Assembly (NCBI GenBank): GCA_039189765.1
Contig: JBCCYL010000007.1
Coordinates: forward strand, 1 to 64,000
DNA length: 64,000 nt
Direction of reading: 5' to 3'
Source of the DNA: Cyanobacteria bacterium P01_F01_bin.150
GTDB lineage: Bacteria; Cyanobacteriota; Cyanobacteriia; CAKZMO01
Part shown: positions 44,027-61,666 of the stretch, one piece after another
Numbering within the stretch: position 1 is the stretch's first letter
Layout: the number at the start of each line of letters is the position of its first letter
The notes under the pieces: generated by a model
What the model saw: only the letters and a program-made list of their open reading frames with translations
What the model was told of the DNA's origin: nothing
Database searches by the model: none
Translations under genes and position numbers: made by a program

Positions 44027-47000
44027 TTAATCCTCAATAAAAATAATGCCAGAAGCCAGTGGAGTCTGCTTAAAGCTTACGTTGTCTCGTTTTTCTTCAA
44101 TACTTTTGAGTTTGATGTCTAGTTCACGATTGACTTTTCTCAACTGTCCCTCTGTAGCGGGAATAATTTGAGTTTTCCCCTCCTGTCGGAATCTCTCTAA
44201 ACGAGTGCTCAGCTCTTTCTGTCTCCTTGCTGCAAATGCCCTGGCGCTATTTTCCTGAGTATTGCAGCGATTATCATTGTCAATATAAAAGTCATCTATG
44301 GCCTGACCATAGGTATCCTCAAGGTAGGCATCACACTGCTTTTGGCGCTCAATAAGGCGATCGCTATTACCAACAAAGTTATGGGCATTGGGCTTTAAAC
44401 GTCCATATTTCATTAACGTTGCTAAGACTGATTCTGATTGCTGGTCGGACAGAAATTGTTTATCGTTAACGTTGATAATTTTATAGGCTAGCTGACTCTC
44501 GGTTTTGAGCCCCTGAAACGTCCAGACATGTACAGAGTAAGCATACAGTCCTGGCACCAGCTTTACGGTATTGGGAGAGGCTTGAATTGCCGAAACGGGG
44601 TGTAGGGACTGGGCCGCAGTGGCGTAGCGATCGCGTATCCAAAGAATCAGTGGATGGGTCGGATCAAGCAACTCATTACTTTGGCCCATATGGTCTGACT
44701 GCTTGGGGTTAAAAAAGCAGCCAATTGGAGACCCAGAAGTATGTAAACGAGTCGGGGTCACGCAACGGTTCTGGCTAACAAAAAAGCCTAAGTCAACTTT
44801 AGCTTTTTCCGATAGGCTAATGTGAAATAGACCTGGAGAGCTGGCCAAGGGCTTAATTATGGTGCCGGGATAGTAACGGGCAAAACAATCTTCTACAAAC
44901 GACTGCATTTCTTCTGGCTGTAGCCATCGTCCTTGTTCTCGGCTGTTATTAATTGAATCTAAAATATGGTCTGAAAAGGCCATCATATTGACGGCTTCAT
45001 TTTCCAGTTCTGTTTGTAGCAGCTTATTTTTTTTCAGGGCATCGCCTGTTTCAATCGCTCGCTTTTCCTTTTCTGCTGGAGATAAGTTGGGATTAAATAA
45101 TTCCGCGATCAGCTCCTCGGTCATATCGCCCAGAATATTTTCTAAGTCGCCAATACTTTCCTTAAAAATATCAATCCGCTCGTACAGCTTTTCTAGAATT
45201 CTTTCTTCGACAGTATTGACTAAGCTGAAATTTATAATGGAAATTCGTTCTGCTTTTTGCCCCAATCGATCCAAACGGCCAATGCGCTGTTCCACTCGCA
45301 TCGGGTTCCAGGGTAAATCATAGTTGACTAAAAAATGGCAGTGCTGGAGGTCGATGCCTTCGCTGCCAACTTCAGAGGAGAGCAAAACGGAGGGACCATC
45401 GTCTTGGCGGAAGTGCTCGACTACATCCCATTTGCGATCGCCCATATCCCCCATAATTAAGCAGGTAGAAATCCTATCTGCCTTTAGCCGCCGTTCTAAG
45501 TAGGTCAATGTTCCTCGAAAGTAGGCAAAAATTACAAACTTCTCGGCGGGATTTGCATCGAGAGTGTCTTTTAGAAACTCGACTAACTGAGCGTATTTAC
45601 TATCCTGAGCTTCTAGCTTTTCAATCCACATGGATGGGGACACGTTGGGAGAAAAGAGAGGCCTTGAGCGATCGCGTTGATTCGACGATGCAAAGTATGG
45701 ATCGCCTGGTTCTCGGAGCTGAGGAGAAACGCCAAAGTCTTCCCAAAGGGATTCATTTACCAAATCGTCAAGAATACCGTCTGACTGCCAGGTTTCCAGA
45801 GCGGCTACCATGCAGCTAGCCATTTGTCGTTGCCGAGCCACCAGGCTCAGTAACGATGTGCCCTTTTGTCCTTGGGCCTGTTGGCGAATTTCTTCCGTAA
45901 CCGTTTCATAAATTTGGCGTTCGGGTTCAGAAAAGTGGACCGTCAACGTTTGGGGATCGCGTTTGACTCGATTTGGCAAAACATCACGTTTACGACTGCG
46001 GGTCAGGTATTGGCTTAGTAGGGAGACTTTTTCCAGTTTGTAGCCAAGGTCAACTCGCTGATCGTCGGTGAGGCGATCGCTCCCCTCCAGGGTCTGAGCA
46101 ATTTGCTTTATCAGCGCATTTTCTACAAAGTAGCTGGACTTAGACGCTTGCTGTACTGATTCTTTAGCCTTAGGAGCGTTGGCAGGTTTAGTCCATAAAT
46201 AACGCAGGGCATGGACCACAGGCTGATTGGCCTCCAGCATCTGATCAAACACATCCTCATTAAAAAAATCTTCTGGACTCAGCAACCGCAGAAGCTGATA
46301 TAGATTTGTACTATCGGTTTGAATCGGCGTTGCCGTTAGCAACAGCAGATGATGGGATGCGTCTCTTGCTAGCTGACCAATTCGATGATTGGCGGTGGTG
46401 GCATTTCGCAGATAGTGAGCCTCATCAATAATCACCAGATTAAACAGACTAAACTCATTGCTGGCAGGATTATCGTCCAAAAGTCGAGCCAGTTCAGCCC
46501 TCGCACTGGTTGCCCTTGGCTCTTCCCATCCGCTGGGCGGACGTAAGCCTTCCAAACTGGCAATACAAACAAACGAGGGCTGTTTACGCTGGTTTTCCAG
46601 ACAGAGCCTAGAACGATTTAGCAGCTCCTTAGCATCCACAATATCAGCAAAAATATTAAACCGCTGGAGTAAATCATCCTGCCACTTCTGCCGCAGCATG
46701 GCGGGGCAAATAATTAACAAGCGCCGAGCATCTTCACGGCTCTGGAGTTCTTTCCAGATGTACATTGCCTCAACGGTTTTACCCAACCCCACCTCATCCG
46801 CAATCAAAATTCTCCCCACAGGAGAATTCAAAAATTTAAGCACAGGCTTAAACTGGTGGGCATAGAATGTGGTCTGGCTTGATTCCATGCTGTAAAACAC
46901 ATTTGTAAGCTGTCCCTTCAGTTTTTCAAAGGTCAGAATTCGCCGCAGATCGTCCGGCCCCCCATACCTCCCCTGCCGCATTAAGCCAGCAATACTATCA

Positions 47001-47185
47001 TCATCTCCACACAGCTCCAGAAGATTTTGGGGTTTGTACGTTTTTTCTGCTGGTCCAAACTGTACTTCAACCAAGAGCCTTGTTCCAGCTTGACGAACTT
47101 TTCCTGTCGTTTTGCCGCGTCGCCCTGGATTGGATTTCAATCGAACGTCTTGATCCGCAATTTCTGGATTCCATGTTTGAGCCAT
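44027..47185 (-). CDS. SNF2-family (RapA/DrmD-like) helicase
   Basis: ADEVGLGKT, DEAH, LLTATP, SEVGSEGIDLQ and NYDLPWNPMRVEQRIGRLDRLGQ motifs; long C-terminal extension. Confidence 0.93.
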   Translation of the reverse strand: MAQTWNPEIADQDVRLKSNPGRRGKTTGKVRQAGTRLLVEVQFGPAEKTYKPQNLLELCGDDDSIAGLMRQGRYGGPDDLRRILTFEKLKGQLTNVFYSMESSQTTFYAHQFKPVLKFLNSPVGRILIADEVGLGKTVEAMYIWKELQSREDARRLLIICPAMLRQKWQDDLLQRFNIFADIVDAKELLNRSRLCLENQRKQPSFVCIASLEGLRPPSGWEEPRATSARAELARLLDDNPASNEFSLFNLVIIDEAHYLRNATTANHRIGQLARDASHHLLLLTATPIQTDSTNLYQLLRLLSPEDFFNEDVFDQMLEANQPVVHALRYLWTKPANAPKAKESVQQASKSSYFVENALIKQIAQTLEGSDRLTDDQRVDLGYKLEKVSLLSQYLTRSRKRDVLPNRVKRDPQTLTVHFSEPERQIYETVTEEIRQQAQGQKGTSLLSLVARQRQMASCMVAALETWQSDGILDDLVNESLWEDFGVSPQLREPGDPYFASSNQRDRSRPLFSPNVSPSMWIEKLEAQDSKYAQLVEFLKDTLDANPAEKFVIFAYFRGTLTYLERRLKADRISTCLIMGDMGDRKWDVVEHFRQDDGPSVLLSSEVGSEGIDLQHCHFLVNYDLPWNPMRVEQRIGRLDRLGQKAERISIINFSLVNTVEERILEKLYERIDIFKESIGDLENILGDMTEELIAELFNPNLSPAEKEKRAIETGDALKKNKLLQTELENEAVNMMAFSDHILDSINNSREQGRWLQPEEMQSFVEDCFARYYPGTIIKPLASSPGLFHISLSEKAKVDLGFFVSQNRCVTPTRLHTSGSPIGCFFNPKQSDHMGQSNELLDPTHPLILWIRDRYATAAQSLHPVSAIQASPNTVKLVPGLYAYSVHVWTFQGLKTESQLAYKIINVNDKQFLSDQQSESVLATLMKYGRLKPNAHNFVGNSDRLIERQKQCDAYLEDTYGQAIDDFYIDNDNRCNTQENSARAFAARRQKELSTRLERFRQEGKTQIIPATEGQLRKVNRELDIKLKSIEEKRDNVSFKQTPLASGIIFIED

Positions 47186-47197
47186 CGCGATCGCCTC

Positions 47198-49609
47198 CTA
47201 GGTCATATCTTTGGTATCGCCATAGTGCATTGGCCCGTCAAAAGCCTCATAGGACGATGAATCATCTGATTCGACTTGACTGGGAAGACGGATAGCTGGC
47301 CCTTCCCAATTTGGAATACACAATCCATAAGCCACAGCAAAGCGATTAAAGTTAACGGGATCAATGCCATTAATCGCTAAATTTTTAGGCGGCGGGATGT
47401 CTTTAATTTCATAGGGGGGAATGCTCGCAGAGCCTTGGTTAAACTCTGCGTGAGTCGATTGAATGGTTGTTCGGAAAAAGGGCGTATTTCCTCCACCACC
47501 GCCGACAAAGACGTTTAAGGTTGCATCCAAATCATTTTTATACATGCCACCACGGGCGTCCTGATGCTTCTCGTTGCCATCCATCACTACCGACGCCACA
47601 AGTCTCTGCACATTAAGGCGGGTGGTACTATCCTGTAGCTTGTCATGGAGGGTTTGATCATAGAGTTCAGGATCTGGATTGAGTGAAGAGAGCTGTTGTT
47701 CGGATGCTCTGTTGCCATTTGAGGCTAACATCATGCGAATTTGATGGGACGTACTGCCTAATTCTTTAGCGGCTTGCTGGGCAAAGGCCGTTACCCCTAA
47801 AGGCTGTACCTCCCCTTTGTAGAAATCAACATACTTCCCTCCATCCTGTCGCCAGAACCGAAACGCGGCCCCATCTAACGTACCGTCGCCAATATCAAAG
47901 AATGTATAGAAGCCTTCCTGAGCTTCCCGTGAATCTAAAAATGACCAAACCGCTGCGGCAATTTCCGGTGTCGTCGCACAATCGAGTTCTTGAACTGCGT
48001 TATCAACCATCCATTTTTCTAAATGATCGAGCAATTGTGTTAATGAGGACAATGTCACATTGGGTGTGTTAAGGTCGGTCTGACTTAGGACCCAAGCTAG
48101 AGATAAGACCTTTTGAAATCTGGCTAAAGCAGGAGAATCACAGTATTCTACGGGCACTCCGACATTGATACTCCACCGAACGGTTTGATTGGTCAATAAG
48201 TCAGCATGGTGGCTTTTAATCCATTTTTGGGCACGTTGGATAACCTGACTGAGATAGTAAGCGCTCAAGCGTTCTACTATTATTGGATCATCAAGCTCTG
48301 GCAATTTCTCCAAACGCCATAAAGACTCTGAAGAGGACTCTGACGGTAAATCAAGGTCCGCTAACCGCATTTTAATAAAGTCGATAGTCTGTTCAATACA
48401 GTAGTCTCCTTCTTCCCATTCCGCTAAGGTTAAACCGGTTAGAAGCGTTCCGTCTTCAAGAATAGCGAGTTTAGTGGGAATTAAGGTTTGTTCTAACGGT
48501 AGCGGATGCTCTAACGTATTGATATCGACAAAGGTGACAATTTCAGCCTGATCTCGACTCAAGTCACGAAAACAAACCTTGGTAAATCCTGTCCCAAAGT
48601 CAATTCCAATGTTGAGATCAATATCGTAGTCTTTGCCCGCTGTGGGAAGCTGAGGCACTATATTGTGCCACTGATCCCTGATTAGAGATTCTGAGGATGG
48701 GAGCTGATCTGGATCTGGAGGAATTTCTCTGGCAGAAGACTCAGACGGCGGCTCGGATGGCGCTGGAATAGATCGAAATTCAATCCGCAGGCTGTTAATC
48801 TCTTGCTGAAGCTGAGTCAACAATTCTGAGAGTTGAGTGACATCGGTATCCAATCTGCGGGTCTGTTGATCAACCTCAGTTCTCTGATCCGCAAATGCTT
48901 GCTGCTGAGTTGCAAATGCCTGCTGTTGAGTTTGAGTAAACTGCTGGAGTTGAGATTGCTGGGATGCAAAGGTTTGTTGCTGAGTCTGGGTAAGCTGCTG
49001 AAATCGATCGTCAATTTTCTGGTCGATTTGGTCAAGCTGATCGATTTTGTTGGCGATCGCATCCACCGACGGCAAAAGCTGTTCTAGCTGGGTTGTCCAG
49101 GTATCGACACTCGACACCCGGGCAAATGTGGCCATTTGCTGGTCATGCTGGTTGAGGCGATCGCGCAACTCTCCAACCACATCAGTAAAAGCTTGAACCT
49201 GCTGACTAAGCTCTTGACGCAGGGTTTGTTCTAGAGCCTGAAGTTGAGCTAAGTTATGATTGGTCTGGGGGTCGGGCTGTTCCTGCCGCTGTTCCTGCTG
49301 TTGTTCAAATCGCTGGGCCAAGGCATTCAGCTCTTGCTGGAGCTTCTGTGTATGCTTGGAAAATCCATCGACCCGTCGTTCAAGTTGCTGGACAGAGGTG
49401 TTGGCTTGGGCCAGATGCTGGTCGATATGCTTTGATATTTGCTGTTCTTGCTGACGACGGCTGGCAAGATTAAGAGCAACAGTCACGGAAAGGGGAATAA
49501 CGGAGTAGGCAATTTGCTGGGTGGCGATCGCAATAATGGAGCCGATCCCTGATGCAGAGGCAGATGCATACTCCGCAATATTGAGCAACGAGCGATGATG
49601 AGACGACAT
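47198..49609 (-). CDS. Membrane-anchored coiled-coil protein with C-terminal Hsp70/actin-like ATPase domain
   Basis: N-terminal hydrophobic hairpin and a Gln-rich coiled coil, then IGIDFGTGFTK (phosphate-1), VGVP, PEIAAA (connect-1), FDIGDGTLD (phosphate-2), VFVGGGG (adenosine) and AVAYGL (connect-2). Confidence 0.8.
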   Translation of the reverse strand: MSSHHRSLLNIAEYASASASGIGSIIAIATQQIAYSVIPLSVTVALNLASRRQQEQQISKHIDQHLAQANTSVQQLERRVDGFSKHTQKLQQELNALAQRFEQQQEQRQEQPDPQTNHNLAQLQALEQTLRQELSQQVQAFTDVVGELRDRLNQHDQQMATFARVSSVDTWTTQLEQLLPSVDAIANKIDQLDQIDQKIDDRFQQLTQTQQQTFASQQSQLQQFTQTQQQAFATQQQAFADQRTEVDQQTRRLDTDVTQLSELLTQLQQEINSLRIEFRSIPAPSEPPSESSAREIPPDPDQLPSSESLIRDQWHNIVPQLPTAGKDYDIDLNIGIDFGTGFTKVCFRDLSRDQAEIVTFVDINTLEHPLPLEQTLIPTKLAILEDGTLLTGLTLAEWEEGDYCIEQTIDFIKMRLADLDLPSESSSESLWRLEKLPELDDPIIVERLSAYYLSQVIQRAQKWIKSHHADLLTNQTVRWSINVGVPVEYCDSPALARFQKVLSLAWVLSQTDLNTPNVTLSSLTQLLDHLEKWMVDNAVQELDCATTPEIAAAVWSFLDSREAQEGFYTFFDIGDGTLDGAAFRFWRQDGGKYVDFYKGEVQPLGVTAFAQQAAKELGSTSHQIRMMLASNGNRASEQQLSSLNPDPELYDQTLHDKLQDSTTRLNVQRLVASVVMDGNEKHQDARGGMYKNDLDATLNVFVGGGGGNTPFFRTTIQSTHAEFNQGSASIPPYEIKDIPPPKNLAINGIDPVNFNRFAVAYGLCIPNWEGPAIRLPSQVESDDSSSYEAFDGPMHYGDTKDMT

Positions 49610-58390: not shown

Positions 58391-58863
58391 AGAAGGTGTA
58401 CATCTTGGATAAAGTTCAAGAGGATAGCTTGGTGAGGAGTTCCAATGGGGCAGATTTTCTGGGCCAGCTTTGAATAGGCTTCTCCGTTGCGAATATCGCT
58501 ATAACTCAAAAAATCCATATCCCATCCTTCATTGAGGATTAACGTGGACAGATCAGCCTTTAGCGGCGCATGATAAACATGACGAATTACAGGAGAGTCA
58601 GTAGTTGCAATGGTGTCGGTGTATGAGCGATACAACTTTAAGTTAGGAGGAACAAAATTAATTTCTTCTAAGAGTTCACGGCTGATGCCATCATCAGGTG
58701 TTTCCCCCGGCTCCAAATGGCCGCCGAAAAAAGCCCAATGGCCAGGATAACGAATTGTTGGAATGTCATCTCGAAGCTGCATAAGGAAACGCCCAGGTTG
58801 GTGGAGAATGGCGATCGCCACCTCAATTTTAGAATGCGCTCCAAAAAAGGGCTGTATCTGCAT
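58387..58863 (-). CDS. NUDIX hydrolase
   Basis: 'LMQLRDDIPTIRYPGHWAFFGGHLEPGETPDDGISRELLEEI' Nudix box. Start uncertain (ATG 58863; the ORF extends to 58908). Confidence 0.92.
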   Translation of the reverse strand: MQIQPFFGAHSKIEVAIAILHQPGRFLMQLRDDIPTIRYPGHWAFFGGHLEPGETPDDGISRELLEEINFVPPNLKLYRSYTDTIATTDSPVIRHVYHAPLKADLSTLILNEGWDMDFLSYSDIRNGEAYSKLAQKICPIGTPHQAILLNFIQDVHLL

Positions 58864-59052
58864 CACAATGAGTCCACATGCTTGAGAATTACTTGAGACA
58901 GGACTCAAATCATAAAATAAATTGGTTCCAACGTGGAAATCGTAACGTCCTCCCAGTTTGGCTCAGGTAATTGTATCGACGGAAAATTCCCAAAATGTTC
59001 AGAAAAGTCGCCAGATAGTCCGGATTCTCAATCGTCTTCCTAGGAGATAGGA

Positions 59053-59104
59053 ATGGTAGATGCACCCTGATTCGACCCCGTTAGGATTTTCCTTTCGGGG
59101 TTTT
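59053..59104 (+). ncRNA. NsiR1-like small RNA, copy 1 (most divergent)
   Basis: Core 21-mer plus hairpin GACCCCG-TT-AGGA-TTT-TCCT-TT-CGGGGTT-TT; TCCGGA at 59019. Confidence 0.7.
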
Positions 59105-59211
59105 CTCTTAGATTTAAATATTCCGTTAGTTTAGAAATTGATAATAGCTGAGATTTATAAAAAAATATATATAAAAGTCCGGATCTTATTAATTTATGAA
59201 GGTAGACAGGA

Positions 59212-59262
59212 ATGGTAGATGCACCCTGATTCAACCCTGAAAGATTTATTCTTTTGGGGTTT
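59212..59262 (+). ncRNA. NsiR1-like small RNA, copy 2
   Basis: Core 21-mer plus hairpin AACCCTGAAAGA...TCTTTTGGGGTT; TCCGGA(59178)-N18-GTA. Confidence 0.75.
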
Positions 59263-59590
59263 CCTTATGCTTACTGCCGTAATCTATGAGTGAGCATTTA
59301 GATTTATTGACTGGGCAATTAGAAATTAATTTATTTTATGAAACTTATAGCTATGAATTATTCCAAAATGTGATTATGGAAATATATTTTATTTTTTGAA
59401 TATTTGTATTTTGCGTAAATTTGCTGATGCTCATTTATTTATTGATAATATATTGAAGCTTTTTTGTTGTTAGCTAGTGAACTCATTTGATTTTCGGATA
59501 TTTTTATCGAGCTTTAAAACTTTTTGATGGAAAGAACTATTGTTATATTCAAAATATCCGGATATTGAATTCCTCTATGAGTAACTAGGA

Positions 59591-59643
59591 ATGGTAGATG
59601 CACCCTGATTCAACCCTGAAGAAATTTATCCCTTCGGGGTTTT
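59591..59643 (+). ncRNA. NsiR1-like small RNA, copy 3
   Basis: Core 21-mer plus hairpin AACCCTGAAG...CTTCGGGGTT-TT; TCCGGA(59557)-N18-GTA. Confidence 0.75.
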
Positions 59644-59755
59644 CTTGTTTTTTATAATTTTATTAAGGTGATAATTTAAGTTCGTTATAAATATATAGGT
59701 CTTTATTTTTATAGCTAAACTATCCGGAGATCAATATTATTGTAGGTAAGTAGAT

Positions 59756-59808
59756 ATGGTAGATGCACCCTGATTCAACCCTGAAAGAATTTATTCCTTC
59801 GGGGTTTT
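59756..59808 (+). ncRNA. NsiR1-like small RNA, copy 4
   Basis: Core 21-mer plus hairpin AACCCTGAAAGAAT..ATTCCTTCGGGGTT-TT; TCCGGA(59723)-N17-GTA. Confidence 0.75.
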
Positions 59809-59918
59809 CTCATTTCTCTATTGATTTAGAGTTTCAAGTGCTTTAATCTATCTTTGAAAGGATTTTAAATTTACGAACAAACTGTCCGGAATATAGATGT
59901 ATTTATAGGTAACCAGAT

Positions 59919-59971
59919 ATGGTAGATGCACCCTGATTCAACCCTGAGAGGATTTATTCTTTCAGGGTTTT
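59919..59971 (+). ncRNA. NsiR1-like small RNA, copy 5
   Basis: Core 21-mer plus hairpin AACCCTGAGAGGAT..ATTCTTTCAGGGTT-TT; TCCGGA(59885)-N18-GTA. Confidence 0.75.
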
Positions 59972-60072
59972 CTTGACTTTATTCGTTAATTTATAAAATA
60001 TTTAAATACTTTTTTGTTTGATTTCTATGATTAAAATTTCCGGAGTTTAACTATTTCTGCGAGTAAGTAGAA

Positions 60073-60125
60073 ATGGTAGATGCACCCTGATTCAACCCTG
60101 AGAGGATTTATTCTTTCAGGGTTTT
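60073..60125 (+). ncRNA. NsiR1-like small RNA, copy 6 (RNA part identical to copy 5)
   Basis: Core 21-mer plus the same hairpin as copy 5; TCCGGA(60039)-N18-GTA. Confidence 0.75.
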
Positions 60126-60235
60126 CTTGTTCTTAGCCTGCCACTTAGTAAGATTGGAATACCTTCTAAATATCTGCTTATTTATCTTTTCAGCTAAACT
60201 ATCCGGACTTTGAATACTCTTATGAGTAAGTAAAA

Positions 60236-60287
60236 ATGGTAGATGCACCCTGATTCAACCTCGAAAGAATTTATTCTTTCGGGGTTT
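60236..60287 (+). ncRNA. NsiR1-like small RNA, copy 7
   Basis: Core 21-mer plus hairpin AACCTCGAAAGAAT..ATTCTTTCGGGGTT-T; TCCGGA(60202)-N18-GTA. Confidence 0.75.
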
Positions 60288-60332
60288 CCTGTTTCTACAG
60301 GAAAAATGACATAACTTACGTAACTCGAATGC

Positions 60333-60407
60333 CAATTTTAGGCTGGTAGTGTAGGGGCGTCGCCTTCGCTCTATCTGTGGTTTTGTGTCAGATTAAAGCG
60401 AAACCCC
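60333..60407 (+). repeat. Degenerate copy of the ~84-bp hairpin repeat family
   Basis: CAATTTTAGG-CT-GGTAGTGTAGGGGCGTCGCCTTCGCTCTATC...TTAAAGCGAAACCCC; same length (75 nt) and same ends as 16726-16800. Confidence 0.7.
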
Positions 60408-60632
60408 ACAACTTAGACTTATTAACGATGAGAACCCAAAGCATTTTGCTGTCGATAAAATCGGTCTTCAGCCTAAAGATATGTACAAAGATATCGCTTT
60501 GTACTAAATCCGTAACGGATAAGGGCAAAAGAATCCATTGACCAACAGGACACGATAAAATCCGGAAAGGATGAATTGGTGACGAATAATGCCATTCAAC
60601 CGAAACTCTTCAATTAATTCGGGGGAAAGCCT

Positions 60633-61091
60633 GTGACTGCTATTTTATCGAATGAAGCTGATGTAACAACTGAACATTATGTTGTCTTGGGCCTGGCGAA
60701 CTGCTTTATTAAAGAAGATGGTGAGGTTCATCCAGTCAAAGTGTTGGAACCCATTCCATCAGCGGCATTGGAAGCCTTGATAAAGGGTATCCCCACATCC
60801 TATAGTTTGGCTTATGCTACTCAAATTGGAGCCATCCTCTCTGACGAAGCCCCCACAATGCCCAGTGTTTTTCCGAAAGATGTGCAGCTATGTGATGATT
60901 TTGCAAGCCGAGCAATCGCTGCTGCACGCACTTACCACTCCCGTCCTGAGGCACAAACTCACATTCCGCTGAATACGACCTACGAAACTTTCAACACGTC
61001 TTTAGATCGGAAGCGCGTATTAAATTCAGAAAACATCGTTAGAACAGAAGATAACGTTAAACAGCACTCATATACACATCAAGTTCTTTAA
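60633..61091 (+). CDS. Conserved cyanobacterial hypothetical protein
   Basis: GTG start with a GGGGG RBS-like run. 'YVVLGLANCFIKEDGEVH..KVLEPIPSA.LEAL.KGIPTSY' and 'DNVKQH.YTH.VL' resemble a conserved cyanobacterial family. Confidence 0.8.
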   Translation: MTAILSNEADVTTEHYVVLGLANCFIKEDGEVHPVKVLEPIPSAALEALIKGIPTSYSLAYATQIGAILSDEAPTMPSVFPKDVQLCDDFASRAIAAARTYHSRPEAQTHIPLNTTYETFNTSLDRKRVLNSENIVRTEDNVKQHSYTHQVL

Positions 61092-61108
61092 TTAATTTGT
61101 CTAAATTT

Positions 61109-61666
61109 ATGACTCTCAAACTTTACGGTGGTACCCGTACTCGCGCCTCTATTATTAAGTGGTACCTCGAAGAAAAAAATATTCCCTACGATTTTGTTCT
61201 GCTGGACTTACGAGCTGGGGAACATCAAACATCGGAGTTTTTAGCGATTAACCCGATGGGGAAAGTCCCCGCCATTGTGGATGAGGATGTGACTTGTTGG
61301 GAGTCTGGTGCGATTTTACTTTATTTGGCAGACCATTATGCTCCGACTCCTCTAAGTGCCGCTCACCGTGCGGCTTTAGGGCAGTGGGTAATGTTTGCCA
61401 ATGCAACGCTGGGACCAGGCTTGTTTATTGAAAGTAACAGGGAGAGGGAAGGCGATCGCCTCCTTTCTTCTTTAAACAGCGTTCTGGAAAAATCTGAATA
61501 TTTGGTTGATGATGACCTAAGTGCGGCAGATATTGCCGTTGGGGCCTACTTAGCGTACGCCACTATGATGGTCAAACTCACCTATGAGAACTATGGGGCG
61601 ATCGCCACCTATGTGACTAATCTCACTCAGCGCCCTGCCTTCAAGTCCACCATCGGTGCTCGTTGA
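61109..61666 (+). CDS. Glutathione S-transferase family protein
   Basis: 'KLYGG.RTRASI..WYLEE', 'INPMGKVPAI', 'WESGAILLYLA' and 'SAADI'. Confidence 0.93.
   Translation: MTLKLYGGTRTRASIIKWYLEEKNIPYDFVLLDLRAGEHQTSEFLAINPMGKVPAIVDEDVTCWESGAILLYLADHYAPTPLSAAHRAALGQWVMFANATLGPGLFIESNREREGDRLLSSLNSVLEKSEYLVDDDLSAADIAVGAYLAYATMMVKLTYENYGAIATYVTNLTQRPAFKSTIGAR

What the first reader, a model, noticed from the sequence alone, without database searches (positions are those of the whole stretch)
59019..60287. Seven-unit NsiR1-like small-RNA array with DIF1-type promoters, not next to hetF
Seen: a 1.3-kb AT-rich region with no real ORF holds 7 units. Each is TCCGGA, then GTA 17-18 nt later (6 of 7; copy 1 has GGA), then the invariant 21-mer ATGGTAGATGCACCCTGATTC starting 33-34 nt after TCCGGA, then a hairpin and T-tract, giving a ~52-nt RNA. 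The linkers diverge freely while promoter spacing and the core are fixed, so each unit looks like a separate promoter-RNA-terminator cassette. Established: in Nostocales, NsiR1 is a ~60-nt heterocyst-specific sRNA made from a tandem array upstream of hetF, each repeat having its own promoter and terminator, and TCCGGA is the DIF1 motif at about -35 of HetR-dependent promoters. From memory the NsiR1 5' core also reads GGTAGATGCACC, which needs confirming. Inference: this array lies between a NUDIX gene and a hypothetical/GST pair, with no hetF or heterocyst genes in the window. If the host is non-heterocystous, this would be an undescribed HetR/DIF1-driven, dosage-amplified sRNA system outside or older than heterocyst differentiation.
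Basis: partly seen in the sequence, partly recalled or inferred. Interest (0 to 1): 0.92.

Follow-up and report, generated by a model that had tools for sequence, protein, structure and literature searches.

The report
Seven NsiR1 small-RNA genes, non-heterocystous host
Seven head-to-tail copies of a known cyanobacterial regulatory small RNA, each with its own promoter and terminator, sit in a cyanobacterium that most likely neither makes heterocysts nor fixes nitrogen; the RNA family is known, but its job outside heterocysts is open, and a cell-division protease gene is a testable candidate target.

Summary
The array is real. All 7 units pass Rfam NsiR1 (44.8-49.9 bits, cut-off 39) and carry TCCGGA-N16/17-(A/G)G(T/G)A, which approximates the promoter read by the sigma factor HetZ. 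The genome holds 3 more solo copies, plus hetZ-patU, hetF, two hetR and a patX-like gene. It has no nifH, nifD, HetP or HepA over cut-off, and its HetF lies outside the Nostocales clade.

This is not peculiar to this host. NsiR1 occurs in 32 of 41 genomes searched, exactly those with HetZ and HetF; 16 of the 32 lack nifD and 2 of 5 rechecked lack HetR. An NsiR1-like RNA in a non-heterocystous non-fixer (Limnospira) is already in print, and this scan reported the same on other genomes.

New here is a candidate target. In 17 of 17 family genomes the hetF ribosome-binding site carries a 7-base complement of the RNA core, although most have no copy beside hetF. This suggests trans-repression of hetF as feedback on HetZ. 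The seed did not hold up class-wide (held-out test negative), so it is a roughly 30% lead. No expression data were found.

The parts
59019..59108 (+). Unit 1: TCCGGA 59019-59024, -10 AGGA 59042-59045, NsiR1 59054-59108 (most diverged hairpin)
   Evidence: Rfam RF02399 44.8 bits; anatomy
59178..59268 (+). Unit 2: TCCGGA 59178-59183, -10 GGTA 59201-59204, NsiR1 59213-59268
   Evidence: 48.4 bits
59557..59648 (+). Unit 3: TCCGGA 59557-59562, -10 AGTA 59580-59583, NsiR1 59592-59648
   Evidence: 45.7 bits
59723..59813 (+). Unit 4: TCCGGA 59723-59728, -10 GGTA 59745-59748 (16-nt spacer), NsiR1 59757-59813
   Evidence: 48.0 bits
59885..59976 (+). Unit 5: TCCGGA 59885-59890, -10 GGTA 59908-59911, NsiR1 59920-59976
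   Evidence: 47.3 bits
60039..60130 (+). Unit 6: TCCGGA 60039-60044, -10 AGTA 60062-60065, NsiR1 60074-60130 (RNA identical to unit 5 but for the last base)
   Evidence: 49.9 bits
60202..60292 (+). Unit 7: TCCGGA 60202-60207, -10 AGTA 60225-60228, NsiR1 60237-60292
   Evidence: 47.3 bits
58387..58908 (-). Left flank: NUDIX hydrolase gene, divergent from the array; not part of the system
   Evidence: PF00293 E 5.6e-13; not beside the 152-aa gene in the loci of 5 kin
60633..61666 (+). Right flank: 152-aa conserved hypothetical gene (60633-61091) and glutathione S-transferase gene (61097-61666); not part of the system
   Evidence: no Pfam or NCBIfam hit for the first, GST_N/GST_C for the second; the pair is kept in 5 of 5 kin without any NsiR1 core in the fetched loci

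Best explanation
A locally amplified set of seven genuine NsiR1 genes. SHOWN: family membership, cassette anatomy, and a host with the HetZ-PatU-HetF-HetR-PatX module but no detected nitrogenase, HetP or HepA. INFERRED from Anabaena work: sigma-HetZ reads each TCCGGA/-10 promoter and makes a 55-57-nt RNA with an almost single-stranded invariant 5' core and a terminator hairpin. Ten promoters in the genome raise the dose quickly when free sigma-HetZ rises. INFERRED: the core acts by base pairing on mRNA, as NsiR1 does on hetF and alr3234 in Nostoc, and the RNA is a standing output of the HetZ-PatU-HetF module, older and wider than heterocysts. The most likely target here is hetF, whose ribosome-binding site pairs with core nt 9-15. 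That would close a negative loop: sigma-HetZ makes NsiR1, NsiR1 lowers HetF protease, PatU accumulates, and sigma-HetZ (and division) is damped. The target step alone I put at about 0.3.
For: 7 of 7 over Rfam gathering. Promoter geometry 34-35 nt in 329 of 343 homologous cassettes and close to the published sigma-HetZ consensus TCCGGA-N16-17-TGNA, where A and partly G are tolerated at the first -10 base (PMC13342950). A sigma-HetZ ChIP peak covers nsiR1(1-12) in Anabaena, 8.4-fold, reduced in the mutant (supplement rows). NsiR1 and HetZ are present in the same 32 of 41 genomes, HetF in the same 31 of 40; NsiR1 and HetZ also agree in 5 of 5 genomes rechecked because core and HetF disagreed. 16 of the 32 have no nifD match and 25 of 32 no HetP. 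A copy lies divergent upstream of hetF in 9 of 9 hetF-bearing named non-Nostocales loci examined (these loci were found through the RNA, so biased) and in 16 of 28 held-out genomes. hetF leader: GAGGGTG(C/T) in 17 of 17 family genomes over 5 genera with variable flanks; AGGGTG(C/T) lies in that zone in 10 of 7188 own genes. HetF cleaves PatU3 (PMC9457339 abstract); PatU is the proposed anti-sigma of HetZ.
Against: No transcript or start-site data for this host. The same supplement lists nsiR1(1-12) as 'up', not down, in hetZ-mutant RNA-seq. No unit has the consensus T at the first -10 position. By whole-window duplex energy hetF ranks only 1097 of 7188 own genes, 188th among 7234 by best helix. 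The seed overlaps the Shine-Dalgarno, and a control gene (glpX) also keeps 6 invariant leader bases in 14 of 14 kin. Outside the family the signal was weak in the first set (shuffled cores as good in 8 of 200) and absent in held-out sets (28 of 100; 38 of 200). Kin are not independent, so co-occurrence overstates. Same-genus G001 and G002 have nif matches, so nif loss here may be recent or an assembly gap (99.09% complete, 350 contigs). A PfaA/HglE-like synthase passes cut-off in this genome. G058 has NsiR1 and HetZ but no HetF match with this query.
Confidence: 0.7

Rival explanations
1. Same genes and promoters, but the conserved function is a different, still unknown mRNA target or protein partner (for example titration of an RNA-binding protein such as PatR); the hetF match is a coincidence of an anti-Shine-Dalgarno-like core.
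For: The 18-nt core is unchanged in 265 of 343 cassettes across the class, far more than a 7-nt family-specific seed needs. The held-out hetF tests were negative. NsiR1 is enriched in PatR CLIP-seq in Nostoc (PMC11797042, passages).
Against: The best-pairing own candidate tested (C44:12001-13353, 11-bp helix) was not found in 0 of 40 genomes' worth of matches (0 of 40). hetF was the a-priori target and carries a match found in 0.14% of genes. No genome-wide comparative target search could be run.
Confidence: 0.5
2. The extra copies are a neutral by-product: short cassettes that duplicate and move easily, with only one or two copies needed.
For: Arrays sit at different sites in same-genus and same-family kin (G003 five copies, G006 five copies, other neighbours), and this site has no core in the loci of 5 of 5 kin. 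Copy number runs from 1 to 10 in the class sample.
Against: Linkers have diverged while 7 of 7 units keep the -35 box, spacing, core and hairpin; no decayed unit was found in the 287-nt gap. That pattern points to selection on each copy.
Confidence: 0.15
3. The host is a heterocyst former (or a Nostocales derivative) with a relocated nsiR1 array and unassembled nif genes.
For: 350 contigs; a PfaA/HglE-like synthase over cut-off; nif matches in 2 of 3 same-genus genomes.
Against: HetF groups with a same-family genome and record L084 (100/99), outside the 12-row Nostocales clade (100/100) (one gene, 27 rows, 3 short rows dropped). HetP not found (rings in 5 of 5 Nostocales controls). HepA best 510 bits against a cut-off of 725, passed by 2 of 2 Nostoc controls.
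Confidence: 0.03
4. The invariant core encodes a five-residue peptide (it reads as a start codon, four codons and a stop in all seven units).
For: The reading is open in 7 of 7 units.
Against: The first base of the supposed start codon lies before Rfam position 1 and is T, A, G or C in homologues (130, 120, 74, 19 of 343). Common variants break the start codon, while third positions stay almost fixed.
Confidence: 0.02

Closest known systems
NsiR1 of Nostoc/Anabaena sp. PCC 7120 (Rfam RF02399; PMC9045159, parts 1-3 of 6 read; PMC4030482, passages; Ionescu et al. 2010 and Brenes-Alvarez et al. 2020 not held, known only as cited)
   Same: Core sequence, length, terminator hairpin, one DIF1 promoter per copy, tandem array with near-identical central copies.
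   Different: Not beside hetF and no antisense copy there; host has no HetP-family gene (so no alr3234-type target), no nifH/nifD and lies outside Nostocales; -10 box is mostly (A/G)GTA, whereas AGAA is the commonest form among 343 homologues; hairpin 5' arm repeats 7 bases of the core in 5 of 7 units; three more solo copies elsewhere.
RNA162 of Limnospira indica PCC 8005 (PMC8400943, passages read)
   Same: NsiR1-like 57-nt RNA in a filamentous cyanobacterium that neither forms heterocysts nor fixes N2; reported as expressed.
   Different: One gene mentioned in passing in a radiation transcriptome; the passages read give no promoter, array, distribution or target analysis.
Sigma-HetZ (DIF1) regulon with PatU and HetF (PMC13342950: first part, Discussion, passages and supplement rows read; PMC9457339 abstract; PMC11298460 passages)
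   Same: Promoter type; host has hetZ-patU (C7:103038-105450), a second HetZ-like gene, hetF, hetR and a patX-like gene behind TCCTGA-N17-AGTA.
   Different: [quoted passage not shown]

Membership tests
NsiR1 (Rfam RF02399) | Covariance-model score over the gathering cut-off, full model length | tested here: met
   7 of 7, 44.8-49.9 bits against 39, positions 1-60
NsiR1 (Rfam RF02399) | About 60 nt with conserved 5' core and intrinsic terminator | tested here: met
   55-57 nt. Covariation within 7 copies not significant
NsiR1 (Rfam RF02399) | Own DIF1 (TCCGGA) promoter at about -35 of each copy | tested here: met
   7 of 7 at 34-35 nt from the first Rfam base; chance mean 0.26
NsiR1 (Rfam RF02399) | Transcription as a small RNA from that promoter | not testable with these tools
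   no RNA holder listed
Nostoc-type nsiR1 locus | Array upstream of hetF with a copy antisense to its leader | tested here: not met
   hetF at C30:61268-64087; no copy on C30
Nostoc-type nsiR1 locus | Heterocyst-forming, nitrogen-fixing host | tested here: not met
   no nifH or nifD over cut-off, no HetP, HepA under cut-off, HetF outside Nostocales; morphology itself not testable
Nostoc-type nsiR1 locus | HetP-family trans target (alr3234) | tested here: not met
   NF037966: no match in G000, matches in 13 of 51 genomes including 5 of 5 Nostocales controls
Sigma-HetZ regulon | TCCGGA-N16-17-TGNA promoter and hetZ in the genome | tested here: inconclusive
   hetZ 647.7 bits against 550; -35 and spacing exact; -10 is AGTA/GGTA/AGGA, tolerated substitutions but not the consensus T; activity untested
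sRNA repressing hetF in trans at the ribosome-binding site | Conserved seed pairing over the hetF Shine-Dalgarno | tested here: inconclusive
   17 of 17 in the family; not supported in held-out genomes outside it; control gene glpX also has a conserved leader block

The most novel reading that the evidence does not exclude
NsiR1 is the feedback arm of an ancient sigma-HetZ / PatU / HetF switch that couples a cell-state change to cell division in filamentous cyanobacteria without heterocysts or nitrogenase. In this family the RNA has been released from its place beside hetF because the hetF ribosome-binding site itself became a seed match, and ten copies restore the dose: a shift from cis-antisense to dosage-amplified trans control of the same target.
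Probability: 0.3. Interest if true: 0.7.

Novelty: new member of a known kind. Interest (0 to 1): 0.4.

Why it matters
The papers read describe NsiR1 as a heterocyst RNA, yet it follows the sigma factor HetZ and the protease HetF across cyanobacteria whether or not they have nitrogenase, HetP or even HetR. What this module does in filaments without heterocysts is an open question. A 70-nt promoter of this type is a ready reporter for whether such filaments have patterned cell states, and the hetF seed gives one concrete, cheap test of the RNA's ancestral job. The array itself is ordinary for the lineage and only somewhat larger than usual.

Tried and rejected
Sequencing runs: no RNA holder listed for window 58400-61100; none was listed, which is no evidence either way; read laying was not used.
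Class-wide hetF seed: the motif GG(A/G)?GTG(C/T), defined after seeing the first set (6 of 15), gave 2 of 9, 0 of 11 (Nostocales) and 3 of 28 in other sets; at least two of those three are close kin of genomes already counted, and energies were not better than shuffled cores. Rejected as a class-wide feature.
Other targets: the ranking of own-genome start regions used my own rough gene caller (7234 genes). One top candidate (C44) was tested and not found in any of 40 genomes (no positive control in that call); the other top candidates were not tested. hetR, the second hetR and patU leaders pair poorly (ranks 7099, 5929, 6436 of 7188); the hetZ rank of 344 rests on an uncertain start.
The pattern GAGGGTGY-N5-9-RTG is common in all 16 kin (34-111 hits each) and was uninformative.
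One search counted hairpin pairs one column out of register; one search is the valid count.
The PF00142 hit at C131 is ChlL beside chlN by its sequence and its score under the nifH cut-off (gene names from my own knowledge).
One search used too strict a threshold and missed HetR in G001-G003, which one search found; G037 was not rechecked.
No NtcA-type GTA-N8-TAC site in 58901-60640; sigma-70-type sites are not above shuffles (5 against 7.3).
Micro-peptide reading rejected. CRISPR or MITE readings were not pursued once Rfam matched and no inverted ends were seen.
Literature: searches listed no paper devoted to NsiR1 outside heterocyst formers; only listings were seen for most, and Ionescu 2010, Brenes-Alvarez 2020 and Elhai and Khudyakov 2018 were not held or not read.

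Full report
Observation. The region 59019-60292 holds seven direct repeats on the + strand, spaced 154-165 nt apart with one gap of 379. Each has TCCGGA, a -10 box after 16-17 nt, an invariant 21-mer and a hairpin with a U tail. The seven TCCGGA are the only ones in the region; 1000 dinucleotide shuffles give a mean of 0.26 and at most 3. All seven fold to the same shape. The stem pairs in 95.7% of cells, but seven close copies give no significant covariation (73 of 500 shuffles). Flanks are a NUDIX gene and a hypothetical plus GST pair.

Identity. All seven pass the Rfam NsiR1 gathering score over the full model (44.8-49.9 bits against 39), and these are the only Rfam hits in the window. The genome has three more copies over cut-off, on C98, C104 and C124, each with TCCGGA at the same distance. 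Two weaker hits under cut-off were not studied.

Host. The window is the start of contig C7 of a 10.64-Mb, 350-contig genome, 99.09% complete and 4.72% contaminated. It has hetZ on the same contig (647.7 bits, cut-off 550), followed by a gene I take as patU from its position (no family hit), a second HetZ-like gene, two hetR genes, hetF on C30 (NF045509, 697 bits, under the whole-length cut-off of 1200, but the best match of Nostoc hetF) and a 65-aa patX-like ORF ending near RGSGR behind TCCTGA-N17-AGTA. It has no nifH over cut-off (best 221.7 against 394), no nifD match, no HetP and no HepA over cut-off (510 against 725; 2 of 2 Nostoc controls pass). Against this: a PfaA/HglE-like synthase passes cut-off, and 2 of 3 same-genus genomes have nif matches. 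In a tree of the first 400 residues of HetF (27 rows; L165, L075, L029 dropped as too short) the host groups with a same-family genome and record L084 (100/99), outside the Nostocales clade (100/100). A non-heterocystous host is therefore very likely; lack of nitrogen fixation is likely.

Distribution. Of 41 genomes (host, 16 kin, 24 other families), 32 have NsiR1. The same 32 have HetZ and the same 31 of 40 have HetF. Only 16 of the 32 have a nifD-family match, while 3 of the 9 without NsiR1 do; 7 of the 32 have HetP. G023 and G026 have NsiR1, HetZ and HetF but no HetR match (2 of 5 rechecked). In 121 genomes drawn across the class, 63 have the exact core and the host has the most copies, 10; that sample holds few Nostocales, whose arrays reach 12 (PMC9045159). 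Among 53 further genomes HetF and the exact core disagreed in five; on recheck three had variant NsiR1 plus HetZ, one had neither, and one had both without a HetF match. Kin are not independent, so I give no statistic. The HetZ link was a lead from an earlier scan note (e1-5235552) that I tested again here.

The array is local. Same-genus G003 and same-family G006 each have five-copy arrays between other genes, and the hypothetical-GST pair has no core in the fetched loci of 5 of 5 kin, one of them with short upstream sequence. The cassettes move and re-amplify, while every unit here keeps promoter, core and hairpin over diverged linkers.

Promoter. PMC13342950 (first part, Discussion, passages, supplement rows) shows that HetZ is a sigma factor reading TCCGGA-N16-17-TGNA, with A and partly G allowed at the first -10 base. 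Its ChIP data put a HetZ peak over nsiR1(1-12), 8.4-fold and lower in the mutant, but the same table lists nsiR1 RNA as up in the mutant. The units match the -35 box and spacing exactly and use tolerated -10 variants. Across 343 cassettes with promoter and U tract the spacing is 34-35 nt in 329. So 'HetR-driven' should read 'sigma-HetZ-driven', by inference.

Target. In Nostoc the RNA represses hetF from an antisense copy and alr3234, a HetP-like gene, in trans over its start codon (PMC9045159). Here there is no HetP and no copy on the hetF contig. A copy divergent upstream of hetF is, however, common outside Nostocales: 5 of 15 one-per-family genomes and 16 of 28 held-out genomes, one of which has a Nostocales-like array. 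In the host's family only 3 of 16 kin show it, four of the others with under 900 nt of upstream sequence. All 17 family genomes carry GAGGGTG(C/T) 9-16 nt before the hetF start, a 7-bp match to core nt 9-15, with variable flanks; the host's one change keeps pairing as G-U. AGGGTG(C/T) occurs in that zone in 10 of 7188 own genes, and hetF is the only one with GGAGGGTG(C/T). HetF cleaves PatU3 (PMC9457339, abstract), the proposed anti-sigma of HetZ, so repression of hetF would make a negative loop. The case is incomplete. hetF ranks 1097 of 7188 by duplex energy and 188th by best helix. The match overlaps the Shine-Dalgarno. Of control leaders in the same kin, hetR, leuB-like and one unnamed gene keep nothing, rpsI keeps GGAG and glpX keeps GGGAGG in 14 of 14, so hetF's block is longer than the controls but not by much. 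Outside the family the first set looked positive (shuffled cores as good in 8 of 200) and the held-out sets did not (28 of 100; 38 of 200). I rate family-level trans control of hetF at about 0.3.

What is known. Reviews and primary papers describe NsiR1 from heterocyst formers (PMC6596454 and PMC4030482, passages). PMC8400943 already notes an expressed NsiR1-like 57-nt RNA in Limnospira, a non-heterocystous non-fixer (passages). hetR, patX, hetZ-patU and a predicted DIF1 promoter are known in a non-heterocystous, nif-less Leptolyngbya, with unknown function (PMC11298460, passages). My searches listed no paper devoted to the RNA's wider spread, but key subscription papers are not in the library. 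This scan has reported NsiR1 in non-heterocystous hosts on several other genomes; a look-up for a hetF seed returned nothing.

Verdict. Real and correctly seen; a new member of a known family, in a context that is common in its lineage, noted once in print and seen before in this scan. Interest 0.4, carried by the HetZ/HetF co-occurrence without nif or HetR and by the testable hetF seed.

Noticed in passing
window 59024-58998, minus strand: The palindromic TCCGGA of unit 1 also reads as a perfect TCCGGA-N17-TGAA promoter on the minus strand, pointing at the NUDIX gene about 100 nt away; it could drive both directions.
   Followed up: no
window 60561-60586: An eighth TCCGGA with CGAA after 16 nt, 72 nt before the 152-aa gene and with no RNA core; not present in 5 of 5 kin.
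   Followed up: partly
window about 60505-60560; L202-L206 upstream of the 152-aa gene: A two-part non-coding motif (CGTAACGG, then a CGATA-containing block about 35 nt on) is kept upstream of the 152-aa gene in the host and 5 of 5 kin; possibly a regulator site or promoter.
   Followed up: no
window 59054-60292, hairpin 5' arms: In 5 of 7 units the hairpin's 5' arm repeats the 7 core bases ACCCTGA, so the core could swap in for that arm; similar arms occur in same-genus copies.
   Followed up: no
G000:C19:22348-23253 (L010): A second, diverged hetR (423.5 bits, under the 489 cut-off) with two short reading frames ending in RGSGR just upstream, at C19:21989 and 22099: a possible second patX/patS-hetR pair.
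   Followed up: no
G023, G026: Genomes with NsiR1, HetZ and HetF but no HetR match (93% and 99% complete).
   Followed up: partly
G000:C277:1345-4608: PfaA/HglE-like synthase over the TIGR02813 cut-off in a host without detected nif genes; the genome is rich in polyketide synthases.
   Followed up: no
window 44027-49609: SNF2-type helicase gene followed by an 803-aa coiled-coil protein with an actin/Hsp70-like C-terminal part, judged by eye from the translations; may be a defence locus.
   Followed up: no
G000:C96:19545-20258 (L188): Conserved gene with no Pfam or NCBIfam hit whose upstream region pairs well with the core (-21.8 kcal/mol, rank 8) and whose homologue lies beside an NsiR1 copy in L089; untested target candidate.
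   Followed up: partly
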